The notes under the pieces: model-generated
What the model was told of the DNA's origin: nothing
Databases searched by the model: none
What the model saw: only the letters and a program-made list of their open reading frames with translations
IMG/VR virus record: IMGVR_UViG_3300032073_000172
Span: 1-28,555 of that record
Strand: one strand, 5' to 3'
Length of the DNA: 28,555 bases
Source of the DNA: a virus
Made by a program: the position numbers and the translations under genes
Shown: positions 5,726-19,907 of the stretch, in pieces
Layout of the letters: the number at the start of each line of letters is the position of its first letter
How positions within the stretch are numbered: position 1 is the stretch's first letter

Positions 5726-6103
5726 TTATAGAATCTCTATATGAACCAAATCATCAAATTTATTATCTTTAATTTCACCATCAGAATCCCAATCCCCACC
5801 CCATCTAACATAGTAACCTAGTTGCTTTGCTATTCCTCTTATCATACCACCCATATAATGAAAACGCTCCCTATCTTCCCAATTTATTGGATATGGTGCA
5901 AGGTCTACAGCTTTACCTTCAAGGTGTTTACTATATTTAGTCTTAGTAGCACCCTTTTTAAGTAATTCTTCCTGTCTTTCTGGTGACCTTATGCCTTCAA
6001 TAATAGTAACATCCATTATATCAATAAGTTTATCTAAGACCTCTCTTAATCTAGGATCAATACCTACCATTCTTTGCTTTGACCTGTTCCCAAATTTTGG
6101 CAT
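5726..6103 (-). CDS. Peptidase M15 (VanY / L-alanyl-D-glutamate peptidase type) cell-wall hydrolase, probable endolysin
   Basis: SKHLEGKAVD matches the LAS/M15 zinc-site consensus SxHxxGxAxD. A second His lies in DDLVHIE. 125 aa with no signal peptide. Its ATG shares a base with the upstream stop (TAATG). Confidence 0.85.
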   Translation of the reverse strand: MPKFGNRSKQRMVGIDPRLREVLDKLIDIMDVTIIEGIRSPERQEELLKKGATKTKYSKHLEGKAVDLAPYPINWEDRERFHYMGGMIRGIAKQLGYYVRWGGDWDSDGEIKDNKFDDLVHIEIL

Positions 6104-6195
6104 TACTTTTTCTTTCTTTTAATAGGTTTAAACATTGTTTTTTTCTTCTTAGAAGGTCTACCCCTCTTTTTATATGTACCCTTTCCGTAAGGCAT
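6103..6195 (-). CDS. 30-aa hyper-basic peptide with an AT-hook core (not in ORF track)
   Basis: Hand translation gives MPYGKGTYKKRGRPSKKKKTMFKPIKRKKK. KKRGRPSKK is a canonical AT-hook (RGRP flanked by K/R). Both ends are coupled by TAATG overlaps (6197-6193 and 6105-6101), so it exactly fills the gap between two genes. Confidence 0.6.
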   Translation of the reverse strand: MPYGKGTYKKRGRPSKKKKTMFKPIKRKKK

Positions 6196-6476
6196 TATTT
6201 TCTCCTAGTTTTAGATGGACTCCATTTAACACGATTTGCCCAATATGCTCCAGACATCTTGCCCCTTGCTATATTCTTAGCATGTCTAGCTTTAAATGCT
6301 CTGCGTTGTGCAGGAGTTTGATTAGTTCTTACCCCTTGCTGACCAAACCTTATTAACTTAGTCCTTGTGCCAACTTTAGCCAGAACCATGTGCGATTTAG
6401 TTTTATGTCGTGGTGTTCTTTTAGGTTTGTTAAAACCCTTAAGACCAAAGCGTTTAATTCTAGGATCACGAGCCAT
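6195..6476 (-). CDS. Hypothetical highly basic protein, 93 aa
   Basis: ORF track: MARDPRIKRFGLKGFNKPKRTPRHKTKSH...RRAFKARHAKNIARGKMSGAYWANRVKWSPSKTRRK, with a very high Arg/Lys content. Its ATG shares one base with the upstream stop. Confidence 0.7.
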   Translation of the reverse strand: MARDPRIKRFGLKGFNKPKRTPRHKTKSHMVLAKVGTRTKLIRFGQQGVRTNQTPAQRRAFKARHAKNIARGKMSGAYWANRVKWSPSKTRRK

Positions 6477-6712
6477 TACTTTTTAGCTAAATCTTCAAGT
6501 ATATCAGTAACCCAATCTATTAACTTTTCTAACAGTTCCTGTTCCTGCTCTTCATTTAAGAAAGGAAGATTTAATTTCTTATTTATTTTTGTAGCTAATT
6601 CTTCTTTTAACTCATCTGATTGTACATAACCAATAAACTCATCTTGATATTCTTCTACAATGTGGTCTTTAGCTTTGTCTATAATCTTTGCTAATACTAC
6701 TTTTTTCAACAT
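6476..6712 (-). CDS. Hypothetical acidic helical protein, 78 aa
   Basis: ORF track, Glu/Asp/Leu/Lys-rich. Its ATG directly follows the TAG of the preceding micro-ORF. Confidence 0.65.
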   Translation of the reverse strand: MLKKVVLAKIIDKAKDHIVEEYQDEFIGYVQSDELKEELATKINKKLNLPFLNEEQEQELLEKLIDWVTDILEDLAKK

Positions 6713-6850
6713 CTATAACTCCCTTTTGATTTTATATCCTAAATAAATAATAGTCATAATAGCCACTAAACATTGTAAGAATAAACTTACCTCTGATAGT
6801 GATAAACCATAATTAAATAAACTTGCAAATGATACTTTTAAACTATCCAT
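6713..6850 (-). CDS. 45-aa single-pass membrane peptide (not in ORF track)
   Basis: Hand translation gives MDSLKVSFASLFNYGLSLSEVSLFLQCLVAIMTIIYLGYKIKREL. Its ATG overlaps the upstream TAA (TAATG at 6852-6848). Its TAG (6715-6713) abuts the next ATG (6712). Confidence 0.6.
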   Translation of the reverse strand: MDSLKVSFASLFNYGLSLSEVSLFLQCLVAIMTIIYLGYKIKREL

Positions 6851-7122
6851 TAAAGATTTTCCTTTAACTCTTCAATATCTTCTAAAATAAATTCCAAAAT
6901 AATATCCTGCCTTACATCAGAAGGTATAGGATCATCCTGTGCATCTTTCATTTCTTTGATATAACTTGCTGTACGCTGACTCTCAACCTCTAAGAATTGT
7001 AATCTAGTGTTTAATTGTCCATAGCCATATACTAACGCACCAATAAACCCAACTGCCTGTATAATCATAGGTAGAGAGATTTTTAAACTACTTGAATCTG
7101 ATATGCCTTTAGGTTCTGGCAT
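6850..7122 (-). CDS. Bitopic membrane protein (TM + acidic helical tail), holin/spanin-class candidate
   Basis: ORF track, 90 aa. TM segment LPMIIQAVGFIGALVYGYG is followed by QLNTRLQFLEVESQ... It shares one base with the upstream stop. Confidence 0.65.
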   Translation of the reverse strand: MPEPKGISDSSSLKISLPMIIQAVGFIGALVYGYGQLNTRLQFLEVESQRTASYIKEMKDAQDDPIPSDVRQDIILEFILEDIEELKENL

Positions 7123-7457
7123 TACTTAGCGTTCCCATTTACTCTACCAGATAAGTAAGATACTTTTTCCTGTAAGTCTGATAGTTCTCTTATAATATCT
7201 TCTCTATGTCTTAAAGATGTATCATCAGATTTATTAAATCTATCTATAAGACGAATAATAATCTGTTTAGCCTCTTCTGTTTCTTTAAGTATCTCATATA
7301 TTTGTTTAGACTGCCCTTGATTTTCTATCTTTAAATCTTCTAATGATTTAGCCTGTTGGCTTGATCTTGTATTCATGCTATATACAAGAAACATAAACAT
7401 CGCTCCAACCACAGCAACCATTCCACCTTCACTATACAATTCCATAAACTCAGTCAT
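7122..7457 (-). CDS. Bitopic membrane protein (N-terminal TM + coiled coil), i-spanin/holin-class candidate
   Basis: ORF track, 111 aa. TM segment GGMVAVVGAMFMFLVYSM is followed by NTRSSQQAKSLEDLKIENQ... and a heptad-like Glu/Lys/Ile/Leu-rich tail. Confidence 0.65.
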   Translation of the reverse strand: MTEFMELYSEGGMVAVVGAMFMFLVYSMNTRSSQQAKSLEDLKIENQGQSKQIYEILKETEEAKQIIIRLIDRFNKSDDTSLRHREDIIRELSDLQEKVSYLSGRVNGNAK

Positions 7458-7502
7458 TTATATCTTAATTCCCTATTAATAAAAAATTCATGTGACACAT
7501 CA

Positions 7503-7790
7503 CTACTTTCGAGATTTACCCCATCTAAGAGGATTGGCTTTTTCGTACCAAGATTCAAGTTTTTCAATCTCTCTCTCATGTTTCTCTTCAAGTTTTTGTA
7601 TACGTTCACTTTGTTGTTCTAATTTTGTTTCTATGGTGTAAAGTTTTTTTTCTATGGTTGTATAAGCAAATATGAGTGATCCAAAGATTGCAAATAGATT
7701 AAGTAAAAATTTAAAATTCAATGTGATTGCCATTGAATCAGAACCTACTACTTCTGCCCTATATGACCTTGCTCCCTTGTTTTTTTCCAT
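7503..7790 (-). CDS. Bitopic membrane protein (TM + coiled coil)
   Basis: ORF track, 95 aa. TM segment FKFLLNLFAIFGSLIFAYTTI is followed by EKKLYTIETKLEQQSERIQKLEEKHEREIEKLE. Its ATG overlaps the upstream TAA (TAATG at 7792-7788). Confidence 0.65.
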   Translation of the reverse strand: MEKNKGARSYRAEVVGSDSMAITLNFKFLLNLFAIFGSLIFAYTTIEKKLYTIETKLEQQSERIQKLEEKHEREIEKLESWYEKANPLRWGKSRK

Positions 7791-7915
7791 TAAACATCTA
7801 ATTCATATTCACAGATGTAAACATCTTCACAGCTAACTGCTGTCGATACTAATAAACAAATAATTCCTATATACACTAATGCCCCTGCTATTCTTATTAA
7901 GGTGTTTTTAATCAT
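7790..7915 (-). CDS. 41-aa lipoprotein-like micro-ORF (not in ORF track), possible o-spanin-like element
   Basis: Hand translation gives MIKNTLIRIAGALVYIGIICLLVSTAVSCEDVYICEYELDV. It has a basic n-region, a hydrophobic core and TAVS|C, which fits the generic lipobox profile. There is an ATGA overlap with the upstream gene and a TAATG overlap with the downstream gene. Confidence 0.5.
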   Translation of the reverse strand: MIKNTLIRIAGALVYIGIICLLVSTAVSCEDVYICEYELDV

Positions 7916-8430
7916 GGTTTGTAATACTTGTAAAAATCTTCTGGGTTTTCTTGATCTACTACAACAAATATAGGTGATACGATTGCATTGCCTGTTCCAG
8001 AACCACCTATAATTGCATACAAGTATTGTCCTTCTTGATAAGGTGACTTAATTGTATCATTATCAAATAGATGTAGAAAGCTAGTATCACTAAATACAGG
8101 CACATAAGTACCATCTAATATTTCATCTACTTCTATTCTACGATTATCATTGTAATCAATAACCTCACCTATGCTTACAGTTCTATGTGGCTGACTTGGG
8201 AACTTACCCATGCCATTCACTTCTACTTGTTGATTGTACCACATCTGAGATGCCTTAACAATCTTCTCAAGGTTTGCCTTAGTCTGTTTAGCTTTAGCTC
8301 CCTCACCGATACGACTAAAAGCAGGAGCAGAGGTAGTTGCCAAAGTAGCCATGATAGCCATAGTAACTGCGAACTCAGCAAGGCTATTACCTTTCTTACT
8401 GCAAATACAATTATAAATACAACTGCACAT
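7912..8430 (-). CDS. Prepilin-like protein (type IV pilin / T2SS GspG-like pseudopilin N-terminus)
   Basis: I place the start at ATG 8430, 1 nt after the upstream TAA, rather than at the track's GTG 8463, which overlaps the upstream gene. The leader MCSCIYNCICSKKG ends in Gly. It is followed by NSLAEFAVTMAIMATLATTSAPAF, with Glu at +5 and about 20 hydrophobic residues. Next comes GAKAKQTKANLEKIVKASQMWYNQQVEVNGMGKFPS, which parallels GspG ...KEKADQQKAVSDIVALENALDMYKLDNNRYPT. Confidence 0.6.
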   Translation of the reverse strand: MCSCIYNCICSKKGNSLAEFAVTMAIMATLATTSAPAFSRIGEGAKAKQTKANLEKIVKASQMWYNQQVEVNGMGKFPSQPHRTVSIGEVIDYNDNRRIEVDEILDGTYVPVFSDTSFLHLFDNDTIKSPYQEGQYLYAIIGGSGTGNAIVSPIFVVVDQENPEDFYKYYKP

Positions 8431-8431
8431 A

Positions 8432-8860
8432 TTACTCAATAGATGAAGTCCACTCACTACCACTTAATACCGACATCACTTGAGCATGGCTTAGTTTATC
8501 GTAAGAACTGAATACGCTAGGATCATTATCTGCATCATTATCACAAGCAAACTTTAGTAGTGCTTTGGTACTATCTCCATCATCTCCATTATTCTTGCGT
8601 AATGTGTCTTTACTTGATTGTATTGCATTAGCAATAAAGGCATTTGATACAGGAATGGCTTGTAATAGGTCTGATTTACTCATATCCGAGGTATATTCAT
8701 AGCCATAGCTATCCATCCATGCTTTTATCTGTGCGATTGTATTTGAGTCTGTAGGAGCATCTGCTGAATCAATATCAGCTACAGGCACAATTAAGTATGC
8801 CCTACCTGCCCATCTACCACTATAGTCATCTGACCATCTGTTTGTTACTTCTTCACTCAT
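8432..8860 (-). CDS. Hypothetical acidic protein, 142 aa
   Basis: ORF track. It follows the giant LamG gene after an 11-nt gap. No motif recognised. Confidence 0.6.
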   Translation of the reverse strand: MSEEVTNRWSDDYSGRWAGRAYLIVPVADIDSADAPTDSNTIAQIKAWMDSYGYEYTSDMSKSDLLQAIPVSNAFIANAIQSSKDTLRKNNGDDGDSTKALLKFACDNDADNDPSVFSSYDKLSHAQVMSVLSGSEWTSSIE

Positions 8861-16966: not shown

Positions 16967-17119
16967 TTATGATATGGCATAATCATTTGCCTTTATATGT
17001 TCGTGTATGAACTCCCCAATCTCAGACTTATTTCTTAAATGTAAATGTTTTCCGTAATAATGTAAGAATATAAAAGTGATAATGATTCCTACTACGATAC
17101 CTAATAAAAACTCTACCAT
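16967..17119 (-). CDS. 50-aa membrane-anchored micro-ORF (not in ORF track)
   Basis: Hand translation gives MVEFLLGIVVGIIITFIFLHYYGKHLHLRNKSEIGEFIHEHIKANDYAIS. Its ATG (17119-17117) overlaps the last codons of terL (GAATGGTAG). It fills the terL-portal gap. Confidence 0.5.
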   Translation of the reverse strand: MVEFLLGIVVGIIITFIFLHYYGKHLHLRNKSEIGEFIHEHIKANDYAIS

Positions 17120-19657: not shown

Positions 19658-19774
19658 TTCTTTTATTTTAGAGTTTAATTCCTTAACTCTTTCTAAATCT
19701 ATTAATTTAAAGTGACCTTGTTCAGACAATAATTCACTTACTTCTTTTAATATTTCTTTAATCTCTTTGTCCAT
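19646..19774 (-). CDS. 42-aa helical micro-ORF (not in ORF track)
   Basis: Hand translation gives MDKEIKEILKEVSELLSEQGHFKLIDLERVKELNSKIKELLG. It overlaps the preceding micro-ORF by 17 nt. Confidence 0.45.
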   Translation of the reverse strand: MDKEIKEILKEVSELLSEQGHFKLIDLERVKELNSKIKELLG

Positions 19775-19907
19775 AATAATCCTTAATTAAGTTATATAAA
19801 TTTGTTCCAATAAAAAACCATATCATTAAACCTATAGGCACAAGCACTAAAGCCATTCCTAACGCTAATAAATTAATAATAATCTCATATAAGTTTATAA
19901 TAATCAT
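19758..19907 (-). CDS. 49-aa membrane micro-ORF (not in ORF track)
   Basis: Hand translation gives MIIINLYEIIINLLALGMALVLVPIGLMIWFFIGTNLYNLIKDYYGQRD. There is an ATGA overlap with the upstream gene's stop (19907-19904). Confidence 0.5.
   Translation of the reverse strand: MIIINLYEIIINLLALGMALVLVPIGLMIWFFIGTNLYNLIKDYYGQRD

What the first reader, a model, noticed from the sequence alone, without database searches (positions are those of the whole stretch)
6713..7915. Array of five small membrane proteins between the pseudopilin and the peptidase
The array is tightly coupled by TAATG/ATGA overlaps. It consists of:
- a 41-aa lipobox-like peptide whose mature part would be only 13 aa;
- three bitopic proteins of 95, 111 and 90 aa with one architecture, a single TM followed by a coiled coil;
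- a 45-aa TM peptide.

The TM-exit sequences of the three look related: LIFAYTTIEKK, FLVYSMNTRSS and ALVYGYGQLNTR.

A normal holin plus i/o-spanin set needs at most three proteins. Three paralog-like TM + coiled-coil proteins together with a pseudopilin suggest something more elaborate than a textbook lysis cassette. It could be an envelope-spanning or superinfection-exclusion assembly.
Basis: partly seen in the sequence, partly recalled or inferred. Interest (0 to 1): 0.6.

Follow-up and report, generated by a model that had tools for sequence, protein, structure and literature searches.

The report
Small membrane proteins beside phage endolysin
Five real, conserved small membrane-protein genes sit in a coupled chain ending at the phage's only cell-wall-cutting enzyme; they are most likely an unusually many-part lysis cassette of an abundant, uncultured group of marine phages, but their function is untested.

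Summary
The five minus-strand ORFs (41, 95, 111, 90, 45 aa) are at the stated coordinates. All are under purifying selection.

- **Context:** the window is a complete 28.5-kb phage genome. The array lies in a start/stop-coupled gene chain from a type-IV-pilin-like gene to a soluble M15 endolysin.
- **Conservation:** 72 distinct versions in about 140 related marine viral contigs follow one gene order. This is [pilin-like or 3-TM protein] > [lipopeptide] > p95-type > [Zn-ribbon] > p111-type > [p90-type] > p45 or T78 > acid78 or F10 > M15.
- **Lysin swap:** five contigs carry a GH108 lysin instead of M15, with a different small membrane protein next to it.
- **Paralogy:** p95 and p90 are paralogues (hhalign 95-96%). 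p111 is not clearly related to them.
- **Accessory parts:** the lipopeptide is missing in 25 of 72 versions, and the pilin-like gene is also dispensable.
- **Topology:** charge counts place p111 and p45 N-out/C-in, unlike i-spanins.
- **Database matches:** none significant in Pfam, PHROGs, NCBIfam or PADLOC.

Best reading (about 0.5): a multi-component holin-type lysis cassette, with the lipopeptide as an accessory partner of the p95-type protein. A classical spanin pair, superinfection exclusion and a pilus-like assembly are less supported.

First-stage notes e1-3443885, e1-3413423 and e1-3537842 describe look-alike cassettes on other genomes; I did not check them.

The parts
7790..7915 (-). 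p41: a 41-aa lipobox-type prelipopeptide. Its n-region carries K3 and R8, followed by a hydrophobic core and AVS|C29. The mature part is 13 aa and strongly acidic.
   Evidence: Its start overlaps the pilin-like stop (ATGA). The only relative (L034, 54% identity) has VTG|C. The exact sequence is on 83 contigs. pN is 0.23 against pS 0.78. In most relatives the slot is filled by an unrelated lipopeptide family whose mature part is 12 aa.
7503..7790 (-). p95: a bitopic protein of family F0 (p95-type). It has a conserved juxtamembrane motif, one TM at about residues 24-44, a heptad-rich helix and a basic C-terminal tail.
   Evidence: heptad z 4.2; dN/dS 0.11. It is present in every related locus examined. 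The family has 1501 clusters in metagenomes, none named.
7122..7457 (-). p111: a bitopic protein of a separate family. It has an acidic 11-residue N-terminus, a TM at about residues 12-28, then two helices separated at a conserved N-x-S-D-D turn, and a conserved G-x3-R-x-N-G end.
   Evidence: All 59 members have more K/R on the C-side of the TM, which indicates N-out/C-in. AlphaFold2 gives helices 2-76 and 82-107 at pLDDT 58. The family has 4203 clusters at 90% identity and 202 at 50%. The nearest named protein-language-model neighbour is a BhlA/UviB holin-like cluster at 0.90, but the Pfam HMM finds no match.
6850..7122 (-). p90: a second F0-family member (p90-type), paralogue of p95. It has the same juxtamembrane motif and TM but an acidic C-terminal helix and no basic tail. 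It is an accessory gene.
   Evidence: hhalign against the p95-type gives probability 95-96%. A second F0 copy follows p111 in 12 of the 72 versions. dN/dS is 0.11-0.35. PHROG phrog_20984 (unknown function) matches at E 2e-6.
6713..6850 (-). p45: a 45-aa protein with one TM (about residues 21-39), a conserved M-D-S-x-K-V start and a basic C-terminus. It is the holin-like gene of the lysin-proximal pair.
   Evidence: All 40 members are N-out/C-in by K/R count. In 36 of 38 versions it is followed directly by acid78 or F10. dN/dS is 0.15-0.31.
7912..8430 (-). Context: a type-IV-pilin-like protein of 172 aa from the ATG at 8430. It has a variable leader, then an invariant G|N-S-L-A-E-F and a hydrophobic helix.
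   Evidence: The three best Protein Data Bank sequence hits are pilins aligned in register at the cleavage motif, but with E 0.07-0.7. NCBIfam PilA matches at E 0.047. The AlphaFold2 model is unusable, pLDDT 35. There is no relative in cultured phages or in 185,579 species genomes.
6476..6712 (-). Context: acid78, a soluble acidic helical protein. It is the constant downstream partner of p45 and alternates with the membrane-anchored F10 in relatives.
6103..6476 (-). Context: basic93 (6195-6476, phrog_7595) and a 30-aa hyperbasic peptide (6103-6195). In relatives this mobile insert sits either after p111 or after acid78.
5726..6103 (-). Context: a 125-aa M15 peptidase with no signal or TM segment. 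It is the only recognisable peptidoglycan hydrolase found and marks the end of the coupled chain.
   Evidence: PHROG phrog_465 endolysin matches at E 7e-39 and Pfam Peptidase_M15_4 at 29.3 bits, above its cut-off of 25. Its maximum Kyte-Doolittle mean is 0.85.

Best explanation
The five genes are the membrane-protein part of a late-expressed lysis cassette that ends at the soluble M15 endolysin.

**Proposed mechanism.**
- The M15 enzyme has no export signal, so it needs a membrane lesion to reach the cell wall.
- That lesion is made and timed by one or more of the small N-out/C-in bitopic proteins. These are p45, in the lysin-proximal pair with acid78, and p111, which has a BhlA/XhlA-like layout of an N-terminal TM plus a cytoplasmic helical tail.
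- p95 and its paralogue p90 act as further holin, antiholin or partner subunits.
- The 13-residue lipopeptide p41 is an accessory membrane-anchored partner of p95.

**Shown here.**
- The genes are real and conserved.
- The gene order is conserved.
- The block stays linked to interchangeable lysins.
- p95 and p90 are paralogues.
- The charge asymmetry around each TM segment.

**Inferred, not shown.** Membrane insertion, lipid modification, hole formation and which protein does what.
For: 1. **Holin requirement.** The M15 endolysin lacks any hydrophobic N-terminus. By established knowledge of canonical endolysins it therefore requires a holin. Only 7-8 ORFs in this complete genome have a TM-grade segment, and five of them form this array in the same coupled chain as the lysin.
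2. **Conserved order ending at M15.** In 72 distinct versions the order is kept and ends at M15. The gene immediately before M15 is acid78 (13 versions), F10 (10) or a basic peptide (23). p45 or T78 is always directly upstream of acid78 or F10.
3. **Lysin swap.** In five contigs the lysin is GH108 plus PG_binding_3 (Pfam 3.3e-21). There p111, p45 and acid78 are replaced by a 71-aa coiled-coil plus C-terminal-TM protein, while the pilin-like gene, lipoprotein and p95-type stay. This is the non-orthologous replacement typical of lysis cassettes.
4. **Topology.** p111 (59/59), p45 (40/40), T78 (19/19) and F10 (23/23) all have more K/R after the TM, and p45 and F10 have basic C-termini, as holins do.
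5. **Weak but repeated leads.**
   - The nearest named protein-language-model cluster for p111 is BhlA/UviB holin-like, at 0.90.
   - There are sub-threshold PHROG hits to holin, Rz-like spanin and bacteriocin-release families.
6. **Precedent.** The PBSX XhlA/XhlB/XlyA and SPbeta BhlA/BhlB/BlyA cassettes use two small membrane proteins with one lysin (PMC6834076).
Against: - No protein reaches significance against any holin, spanin or other named family.
- In 18 of 59 p95-fetched loci with at least 2.5 kb of downstream sequence, neither M15 nor GH108 was found.
- In one such record, 70% complete, 12 kb further downstream showed no Pfam lysin.
- Strings of hyperbasic, DNA-binding-like proteins are interleaved in the cassette, which is odd for a lysis unit.
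- The block lies between the capsid and connector genes.
- Five to six membrane proteins are more than any characterised lysis system needs.
- Topology rests on a charge-count heuristic only.
- The host, and even its envelope type, is unknown.
Confidence: 0.5

Rival explanations
1. p41 and p95, perhaps with p90, form a two-component spanin-type pair. The outer-membrane lipoprotein and an N-in/C-out inner-membrane coiled-coil protein bridge the periplasm and disrupt the outer membrane after p111 or p45 act as holin. This overlaps with the lysis reading and differs only in the role given to p41, p95 and p90.
For: - A lipobox gene is translationally coupled to a bitopic coiled-coil gene in 45 of 45 cases where a lipoprotein is present.
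- p95 has a clear heptad pattern.
- There are weak PHROG Rz-like spanin hits at E 0.008-0.046.
- The acidic mature lipopeptide and the polybasic C-tail of p95 have complementary charges.
Against: - The gene order is reversed compared with the i-spanin-then-o-spanin layouts in PMC6139136.
- The mature lipopeptide is 12-13 aa, against 40 aa for Rz1, and it is not proline-rich.
- Asp or Glu at +2 in 46 of 51 sequences is the inner-membrane retention signal in E. coli-type sorting.
- No lipoprotein ORF is present in 25 of 72 versions, although the p95-type tail is unchanged.
- K/R counts weakly favour N-out/C-in for the p95-type: 48 members against 3, with 19 ties.
Confidence: 0.15
2. The array works with the pilin-like protein as an envelope-modifying or superinfection-exclusion module. 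It would block or hijack the host type IV, Tad or type II machinery, or form a small PilN/O/P-like platform. It is only incidentally near the lysin.
For: - A pilin-type class III signal lies just upstream and is start/stop-coupled to the array.
- The p95-type gene is almost always preceded by a pilin-like gene and/or a lipopeptide gene. Counts are both 11, pilin only 9, lipopeptide only 18, neither 1, with Fisher p 0.008, not corrected for relatedness.
- The layout of bitopic proteins plus a lipoprotein recalls PilN/PilO/PilP.
Against: - The pilin-like gene is missing in half of the unbiased versions.
- There are no matches to PilN/O/P, Gsp, Tad or PADLOC models.
- The proteins are about half the size of PilN/O and lack their ferredoxin-like domain.
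- The genes are in the late operon of a phage with no detected integrase.
- The pilin-like fold could not be modelled.
Confidence: 0.12
3. The proteins are not lysis proteins. They would be membrane-anchored helpers of virion assembly or genome delivery, for example membrane tethers working with the interleaved hyperbasic DNA-binding-like proteins and a virion-associated M15 wall hydrolase. Alternatively they are a mosaic of unrelated small genes with no joint function.
For: - The block lies between capsid and connector genes and is interleaved with hyperbasic proteins.
- In some relatives no lysin follows, and large unannotated structural-size proteins do.
- basic93 weakly matches part of a 'minor head protein and DNA pilot' PHROG.
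Against: - Lipoprotein and prepilin signals target the producing cell's envelope, not a tailed virion.
- The order of the membrane genes is conserved while neighbouring genes vary.
- The small stand-alone M15 enzyme matches endolysin PHROGs strongly.
- The tape measure and tail genes are elsewhere.
Confidence: 0.15

Closest known systems
PBSX XhlA/XhlB/XlyA and SPbeta BhlA/BhlB/BlyA lysis cassettes of Bacillus subtilis prophages
   Same: - Several small membrane proteins, each a single TM plus a helical coiled-coil-prone tail, are encoded next to one wall hydrolase in a late operon.
- p111 has the BhlA-like layout.
- The 71-aa protein in the GH108 variant has the XhlA-like layout of coiled coil then C-terminal TM.
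   Different: - There is no significant sequence match. XhlA scores 20.1 bits against a cut-off of 34.7 and covers the coiled coil only. The BhlA HMM finds nothing.
- Here there are up to six membrane proteins plus a lipopeptide and a pilin-like gene.
- The host is probably a marine bacterium of unknown envelope type.
Two-component spanins (lambda Rz/Rz1; survey in PMC6139136)
   Same: A lipobox protein gene is coupled to the gene of a bitopic protein with a coiled-coil domain, close to an endolysin.
   Different: - The gene order is reversed.
- The mature lipopeptide is 12-13 aa and lacks prolines.
- Asp or Glu occupies +2.
- The lipoprotein is often absent.
- The predicted topology does not favour N-in/C-out.
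- The bitopic partner has a polybasic C-terminus.
T4 holin T with antiholins RI and RIII (from my own knowledge, not checked here)
   Same: Lysis timing is controlled by several small proteins. A membrane holin is bound by a small membrane-tethered periplasmic partner and by a small soluble cytoplasmic partner. This resembles p41 with p95 and acid78 with p45.
   Different: There is no sequence similarity, and T4 T is N-in/C-out with a large periplasmic domain. The analogy is to the logic only.
PilN/PilO/PilP alignment subcomplex of type IV pili
   Same: A pilin-type gene is followed by a lipoprotein and by bitopic TM plus coiled-coil proteins.
   Different: - The proteins are about half the size and lack ferredoxin-like domains.
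- There are no Pfam or NCBIfam matches.
- The pilin-like gene is dispensable in relatives.
phiKT gp28 'disruptin' (bioRxiv 10.1101/515445)
   Same: Small, highly cationic peptides are encoded next to the endolysin. The window's 30-aa peptide overlaps the M15 start.
   Different: The window's peptides are Lys/Arg/Gly/Pro-rich rather than amphipathic helices and look more like DNA binders. This similarity was not tested and lies outside the five-gene array.

Membership tests
Two-component spanin (i-spanin + o-spanin) | The o-spanin is a lipoprotein with a signal peptide and a lipobox Cys. | tested here: met
   p41 has AVS|C, which deviates from the consensus at -3; its relative has VTG|C. In the usual lipopeptide family, 54 of 55 sequences have [GAS]-C at the end of the hydrophobic core. 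Lipid modification itself was not tested.
Two-component spanin (i-spanin + o-spanin) | The o-spanin is sorted to the outer membrane, and its mature periplasmic domain is long enough to meet the i-spanin (Rz1: 40 aa). | tested here: not met
   The mature part is 12-13 aa. Asp or Glu at +2 in 46 of 51 sequences is an inner-membrane retention signal under E. coli rules (PMC6139136). The host's sorting rules are unknown.
Two-component spanin (i-spanin + o-spanin) | The i-spanin is a class II (N-in, C-out) membrane protein with periplasmic coiled coils. | tested here: inconclusive
   The coiled-coil signal is clear for p95. K/R counts weakly favour N-out/C-in for the p95-type: 48 against 3, with 19 ties. 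The p90-type is tied. No topology predictor was available.
Two-component spanin (i-spanin + o-spanin) | Both genes are present, with the o-spanin gene embedded in, overlapping the end of, or following the i-spanin gene. | tested here: not met
   The lipopeptide gene always precedes the bitopic gene (45/45). It is absent in 25 of 72 versions, and no embedded lipobox ORF was found.
Holin (functional class) | A small protein with at least one TM and a charged, usually basic C-terminus, encoded next to an endolysin that lacks its own export signal. | tested here: met
   p45 has one TM and a basic C-terminal end of four to six residues. It lies in the coupled chain leading to the signal-less M15. 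p111 has one TM plus a helical tail.
Holin (functional class) | Lethal, timed permeabilisation of the cytoplasmic membrane that releases the endolysin. | not testable with these tools
   This needs expression and complementation experiments.
Holin_BhlA (PF10960) / BhlA-UviB holin-like peptides | A match to the family HMM above its cut-off. | tested here: not met
   There is no match in the whole window even at E 10. The only link is a protein-language-model neighbour at 0.90 with 186 shared features.
XhlA (PF10779) | A match above the 34.7-bit cut-off, with a coiled coil followed by a C-terminal TM. | tested here: not met
   p95 scores 20.1 bits, over the coiled coil only, and its TM is N-terminal.
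Type IV pilin / pseudopilin (the upstream neighbour) | A class III signal: a short basic leader, Gly at -1, Glu at +5 and a hydrophobic alpha-1 helix. | tested here: met
   The leader is variable, followed by an invariant G|N-S-L-A-E-F and a helix. The three best PDB sequence hits are pilins aligned in register, with E 0.07-0.7.
Type IV pilin / pseudopilin (the upstream neighbour) | A pilin fold in the globular domain, or a significant family HMM match. | tested here: inconclusive
   There is no Pfam hit at E 0.1. NCBIfam PilA matches at E 0.047. The AlphaFold2 model has pLDDT 35 and is unusable.
PilN / PilO / PilP or GspL / GspM platform proteins | A family HMM match, or a TM plus coiled coil plus ferredoxin-like domain of about 180-200 aa. 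| tested here: not met
   There are no such hits at E 0.1 in Pfam or NCBIfam. The proteins are 90-111 aa and helix-only.

The most novel reading that the evidence does not exclude
The module is a new kind of envelope-breaching or lysis-control system of abundant marine phages. A bitopic protein with a polybasic tail (p95-type) works with a 12-13-residue lipopeptide and/or a type-IV-pilin-like protein, in place of spanins or a disruptin. It acts together with a set of N-out/C-in helical membrane proteins. The near-exclusive rule that at least one of the lipopeptide or pilin-like gene precedes the p95-type gene would reflect interchangeable periplasmic partners.
Probability: 0.15. Interest if true: 0.8.

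Novelty: new variant of a known kind. Interest (0 to 1): 0.5.

Why it matters
- **Abundance.** The p111 and p95 families each have over a thousand 90%-identity clusters in ocean metagenomes, including Tara, and carry no annotation.
- **Knowledge gap.** How most uncultured marine phages lyse their hosts is unknown. The spanin survey PMC6139136 found no spanin in about 13% of the genomes it analysed.
- **What this offers.** A conserved, testable gene order for a multi-part membrane cassette tied to interchangeable endolysins gives concrete candidates for that missing lysis machinery.
- **Odd parts worth study.**
  - A near-invariant 12-residue lipopeptide.
  - A pilin-type protein found in no cultured phage and in none of 185,579 species genomes.

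Tried and rejected
- **Family searches.** Pfam, PHROGs, NCBIfam and PADLOC scans of all five proteins and of family members gave only sub-threshold, coiled-coil-type hits.
- **Cultured phages.** tblastn of consensus-like p95-type, p111-type and pilin-like proteins against 50,697 phage records gave no match. The large-terminase gene's best hits were about 35% identical Vibrio siphophages, so the host stays unknown.
- **Bacterial genomes.** A scan for the pilin-like protein found nothing.
- **Embedded lipoprotein ORFs.** In the 33 loci without a lipoprotein gene I searched for lipobox ORFs in other frames and found none.
- **Structure.**
  - The pilin-like model failed (pLDDT 35), so no fold search was run.
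  - The p111 model is just two helices.
- **Protein language model.** The search for the p95-type gave no meaningful named neighbour.
- **Other pairs compared by hhalign.**
  - acid78 and F10 looked alike at the C-terminus by eye, but hhalign gives 0.8%.
  - T78 is not detectably related to F0.
- **Possible chimera.** P0386 joins a p111-type TM to a p95-type tail and would argue for a shared topology. It is a singleton on an 818-bp contig, so I gave it no weight.
- **Lysin in relatives without M15.** None was found in five incomplete records or in 12 kb of extra sequence.
- **Signals.** The promoter and terminator scan was uninformative.
Full report
**What is there.** The window is a complete 28,555-bp viral record with terminal repeats, and essentially every gene is on the minus strand. 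The five ORFs of the finding are at the stated coordinates and sizes:

| Name | Coordinates | Length |
|---|---|---|
| p41 | 7790-7915 | 41 aa |
| p95 | 7503-7790 | 95 aa |
| p111 | 7122-7457 | 111 aa |
| p90 | 6850-7122 | 90 aa |
| p45 | 6713-6850 | 45 aa |

The start/stop overlaps are as described, except for a 45-nt gap between p95 and p111. The coupling extends beyond the finding on both sides.
- **Upstream:** the pilin-like gene. Its likely start is the ATG at 8430, giving 172 aa, and its stop overlaps the p41 start.
- **Downstream:** acid78, basic93, a 30-aa hyperbasic peptide and then the M15 peptidase, each joined by a one-base overlap.

**Are they genes?** Yes.
- Nei-Gojobori comparisons with relatives give dN/dS of 0.11-0.37 for p95, p111, p90 and p45. 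For p41, pN is 0.23 against a saturated pS of 0.78.
- The exact sequences recur on 1-83 independent contigs from several sources.
- Each protein has one strongly hydrophobic 19-residue stretch.
- Only 7-8 of about 54 ORFs in the genome have such a stretch, and five of them are consecutive here. I estimate the chance of that at roughly 1e-3.

**Relatives and gene order.** A scan seeded with the pilin-like protein brought 72 viral contigs. A scan seeded with a p95-type protein brought 80 more loci. After dereplication there are 72 distinct versions of the block, all obeying one order:

fibre-like giant protein > acid142 > [pilin-like, or a 97-aa multi-TM protein, or nothing] > [lipopeptide] > p95-type > [88-aa TM protein] > [31-47-aa zinc-ribbon] > p111-type > [p90-type] > p45 or T78 > acid78 or F10 > M15

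A movable string of hyperbasic small proteins sits either after p111 or after acid78. The adjacency rules are strict:
- The lipopeptide is always followed by the p95-type gene (45/45), mostly with an ATGA overlap.
- p45 is followed by acid78 or F10 in 36 of 38 versions.
- T78 is followed by F10 in 18 of 18.
- M15 is preceded by acid78, F10 or a basic peptide.

The block therefore has two sub-modules. One is pilin-proximal (lipopeptide, p95-type, p111-type). The other is lysin-proximal (p45 or T78, then acid78 or F10, then M15).

**The three bitopic proteins.**
- p95 and p90 belong to one family, F0. BLASTP between the two sets reaches E 3e-9. hhalign gives probability 95-96% over the juxtamembrane motif, the TM and the first helix.
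- p111 is a separate family with its own invariant motifs. hhalign gives 1-3% against the p95-type and a borderline 36% against the p90-type.
- The heptad pattern is clear only in p95.
- AlphaFold2 models p111 as two helices at low confidence.

So "three paralogue-like TM plus coiled-coil proteins" is right for two of them and unproven for the third.

**The lipopeptide.**
- p41 has a positively charged n-region, a hydrophobic core and AVS|C. Its single relative has VTG|C.
- Most relatives carry an unrelated lipopeptide family in the same slot. Its mature part is only 12 residues and nearly invariant, of the type C-D-G-G-W-S-V-A-G-Y-E-V.
- Asp or Glu is at +2 in 46 of 51 sequences.
- A few versions extend the same start into a 61-63-residue mature domain.
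- The lipopeptide is absent from 25 of 72 versions, and no hidden lipobox ORF was found in other frames.

**Topology.** No topology predictor was available, so I counted K+R in the 15 residues on either side of each TM.

| Family | Members with more K+R after the TM | Reading |
|---|---|---|
| p111 | 59 of 59 | N-out/C-in |
| p45 | 40 of 40 | N-out/C-in |
| T78 | 19 of 19 | N-out/C-in |
| F10 | 23 of 23 | N-out/C-in |
| p95-type | 48 (3 the other way, 19 ties) | leans N-out/C-in |
| p90-type | all 13 tied | undecided |

N-out/C-in places the helical tails in the cytoplasm, which is the opposite of an i-spanin.

**Link to lysis.**
- The M15 protein matches endolysin PHROG 465 at E 7e-39 and Pfam Peptidase_M15_4 above its cut-off. 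It has no hydrophobic N-terminus. By established knowledge such an enzyme needs a holin.
- The only other TM-grade ORFs in the genome are two isolated 49-50-aa ORFs, at 19758-19907 and 16967-17119.
- In five contigs the pilin-like gene, a 90-aa lipoprotein and the p95-type gene are kept. They are followed by a zinc-ribbon, then a 71-aa protein with a coiled coil and a C-terminal TM (the XhlA layout), and then a GH108 plus PG_binding_3 lysin, Pfam 3.3e-21.
- Swapping the lysin type and the adjacent small membrane protein while keeping the position is what lysis cassettes typically do.

Against this reading:
- 18 of 59 p95-fetched loci with at least 2.5 kb of downstream sequence showed neither lysin.
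- One 70%-complete record showed no Pfam lysin in a further 12 kb.

**Database and literature comparison.**
- No significant match exists in Pfam, PHROGs, NCBIfam or PADLOC.
- The p111 family has 4203 clusters at 90% identity and 202 at 50% identity. The F0 family has 1501 clusters. All come from marine metagenomes and none is named.
- The nearest named protein-language-model neighbour of p111 is a BhlA/UviB holin-like cluster at 0.90, but the Pfam BhlA model finds nothing in the window.
- The spanin criteria in PMC6139136 are not met on gene order, mature lipoprotein length or constancy of the pair.
- The Bacillus prophage cassettes XhlA/XhlB/XlyA and BhlA/BhlB/BlyA (PMC6834076) are the closest functional precedent for several small helical membrane proteins serving one lysin.

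**The pilin-like neighbour.**
- Its leader varies, while the sequence after the Gly is invariant. Glu is at +5 and a hydrophobic helix follows.
- The three best Protein Data Bank sequence hits are type IV pilins aligned in register, though at E 0.07-0.7.
- The globular part could not be modelled.
- It is not an obligate partner of the array. In the p95-seeded, dereplicated set the counts are pilin plus lipopeptide 11, pilin only 9, lipopeptide only 18, neither 1. At least one of the two therefore nearly always precedes the p95-type gene. Fisher p is 0.008, but relatedness of the contigs is not corrected for. I cannot explain this pattern.

**Verdict.**
- **Best-supported reading (about 0.5):** a multi-component, holin-type lysis cassette feeding a soluble endolysin. 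p45 and p111 are the likeliest hole-formers. p95 and p90 are paralogous partner or regulator subunits. p41 is an accessory lipopeptide partner of p95.
- **Classical spanin pair (0.15):** several defining features fail.
- **Pilus-like or exclusion assembly (0.12):** no positive support beyond the neighbour's motif.
- **Non-lysis assembly or delivery role, or no joint function (0.15):** not excluded.

None of the functions has been tested. The families are unannotated and extremely common in the ocean, which makes the cassette a worthwhile experimental target.

Noticed in passing
window 7912-8430 (-): A type-IV-pilin-like protein. Its leader varies between relatives, but the 40 residues after the predicted cleavage Gly are invariant. 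It has no relative in 50,697 cultured-phage records or in 185,579 species genomes.
   Followed up: partly
window 6103-6476 (-); L082:5413-7229: Hyperbasic small proteins (basic93, a 30-aa K/R peptide, and up to eight in a row in L082) sit inside the cassette. In relatives they switch between two positions, after p111 or after acid78.
   Followed up: partly
L054:6004-7861 (also L055, L068-L070): A variant cassette: pilin-like > 90-aa lipoprotein > p95-type > zinc-ribbon > 71-aa coiled coil plus C-terminal TM > GH108/PG_binding_3 lysin. M15, p111, p45 and acid78 are absent.
   Followed up: yes
L082:3598-3891, L088:3595-3888: In several pilin-less relatives a 97-aa multi-TM protein occupies the slot of the pilin-like gene, directly before the lipopeptide. 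It could be a classical holin.
   Followed up: no
L085:1903-2034 and about 50 other loci: The lipopeptide's mature part is only 12 residues and is nearly invariant, with Asp at +2. Longer versions (L046:6480-6755) add a domain of about 50 residues with two Cys.
   Followed up: partly
window 7458-7502; L085:2419-2520: Many relatives have a 31-47-aa four-Cys zinc-ribbon ORF between the p95-type and p111-type genes. The window has only a 45-nt gap there.
   Followed up: no
window 19758-19907 (-) and 16967-17119 (-): Two further isolated small ORFs of 49 and 50 aa each have one strong TM. One lies between the terminase and portal genes. They are alternative holin candidates.
   Followed up: no
protein P0386 (818-bp ENA contig): An apparent natural chimera of a p111-type N-terminus and TM with a p95-type C-terminal helix and basic tail. 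It is a singleton cluster, so it may be an assembly artefact.
   Followed up: partly
window 8432-8860 (-): The acidic 142-aa protein that opens the block is conserved in pilin-containing and pilin-less relatives. It shares a short helix-extended-helix-like segment with 145-187-aa proteins in the same position.
   Followed up: no
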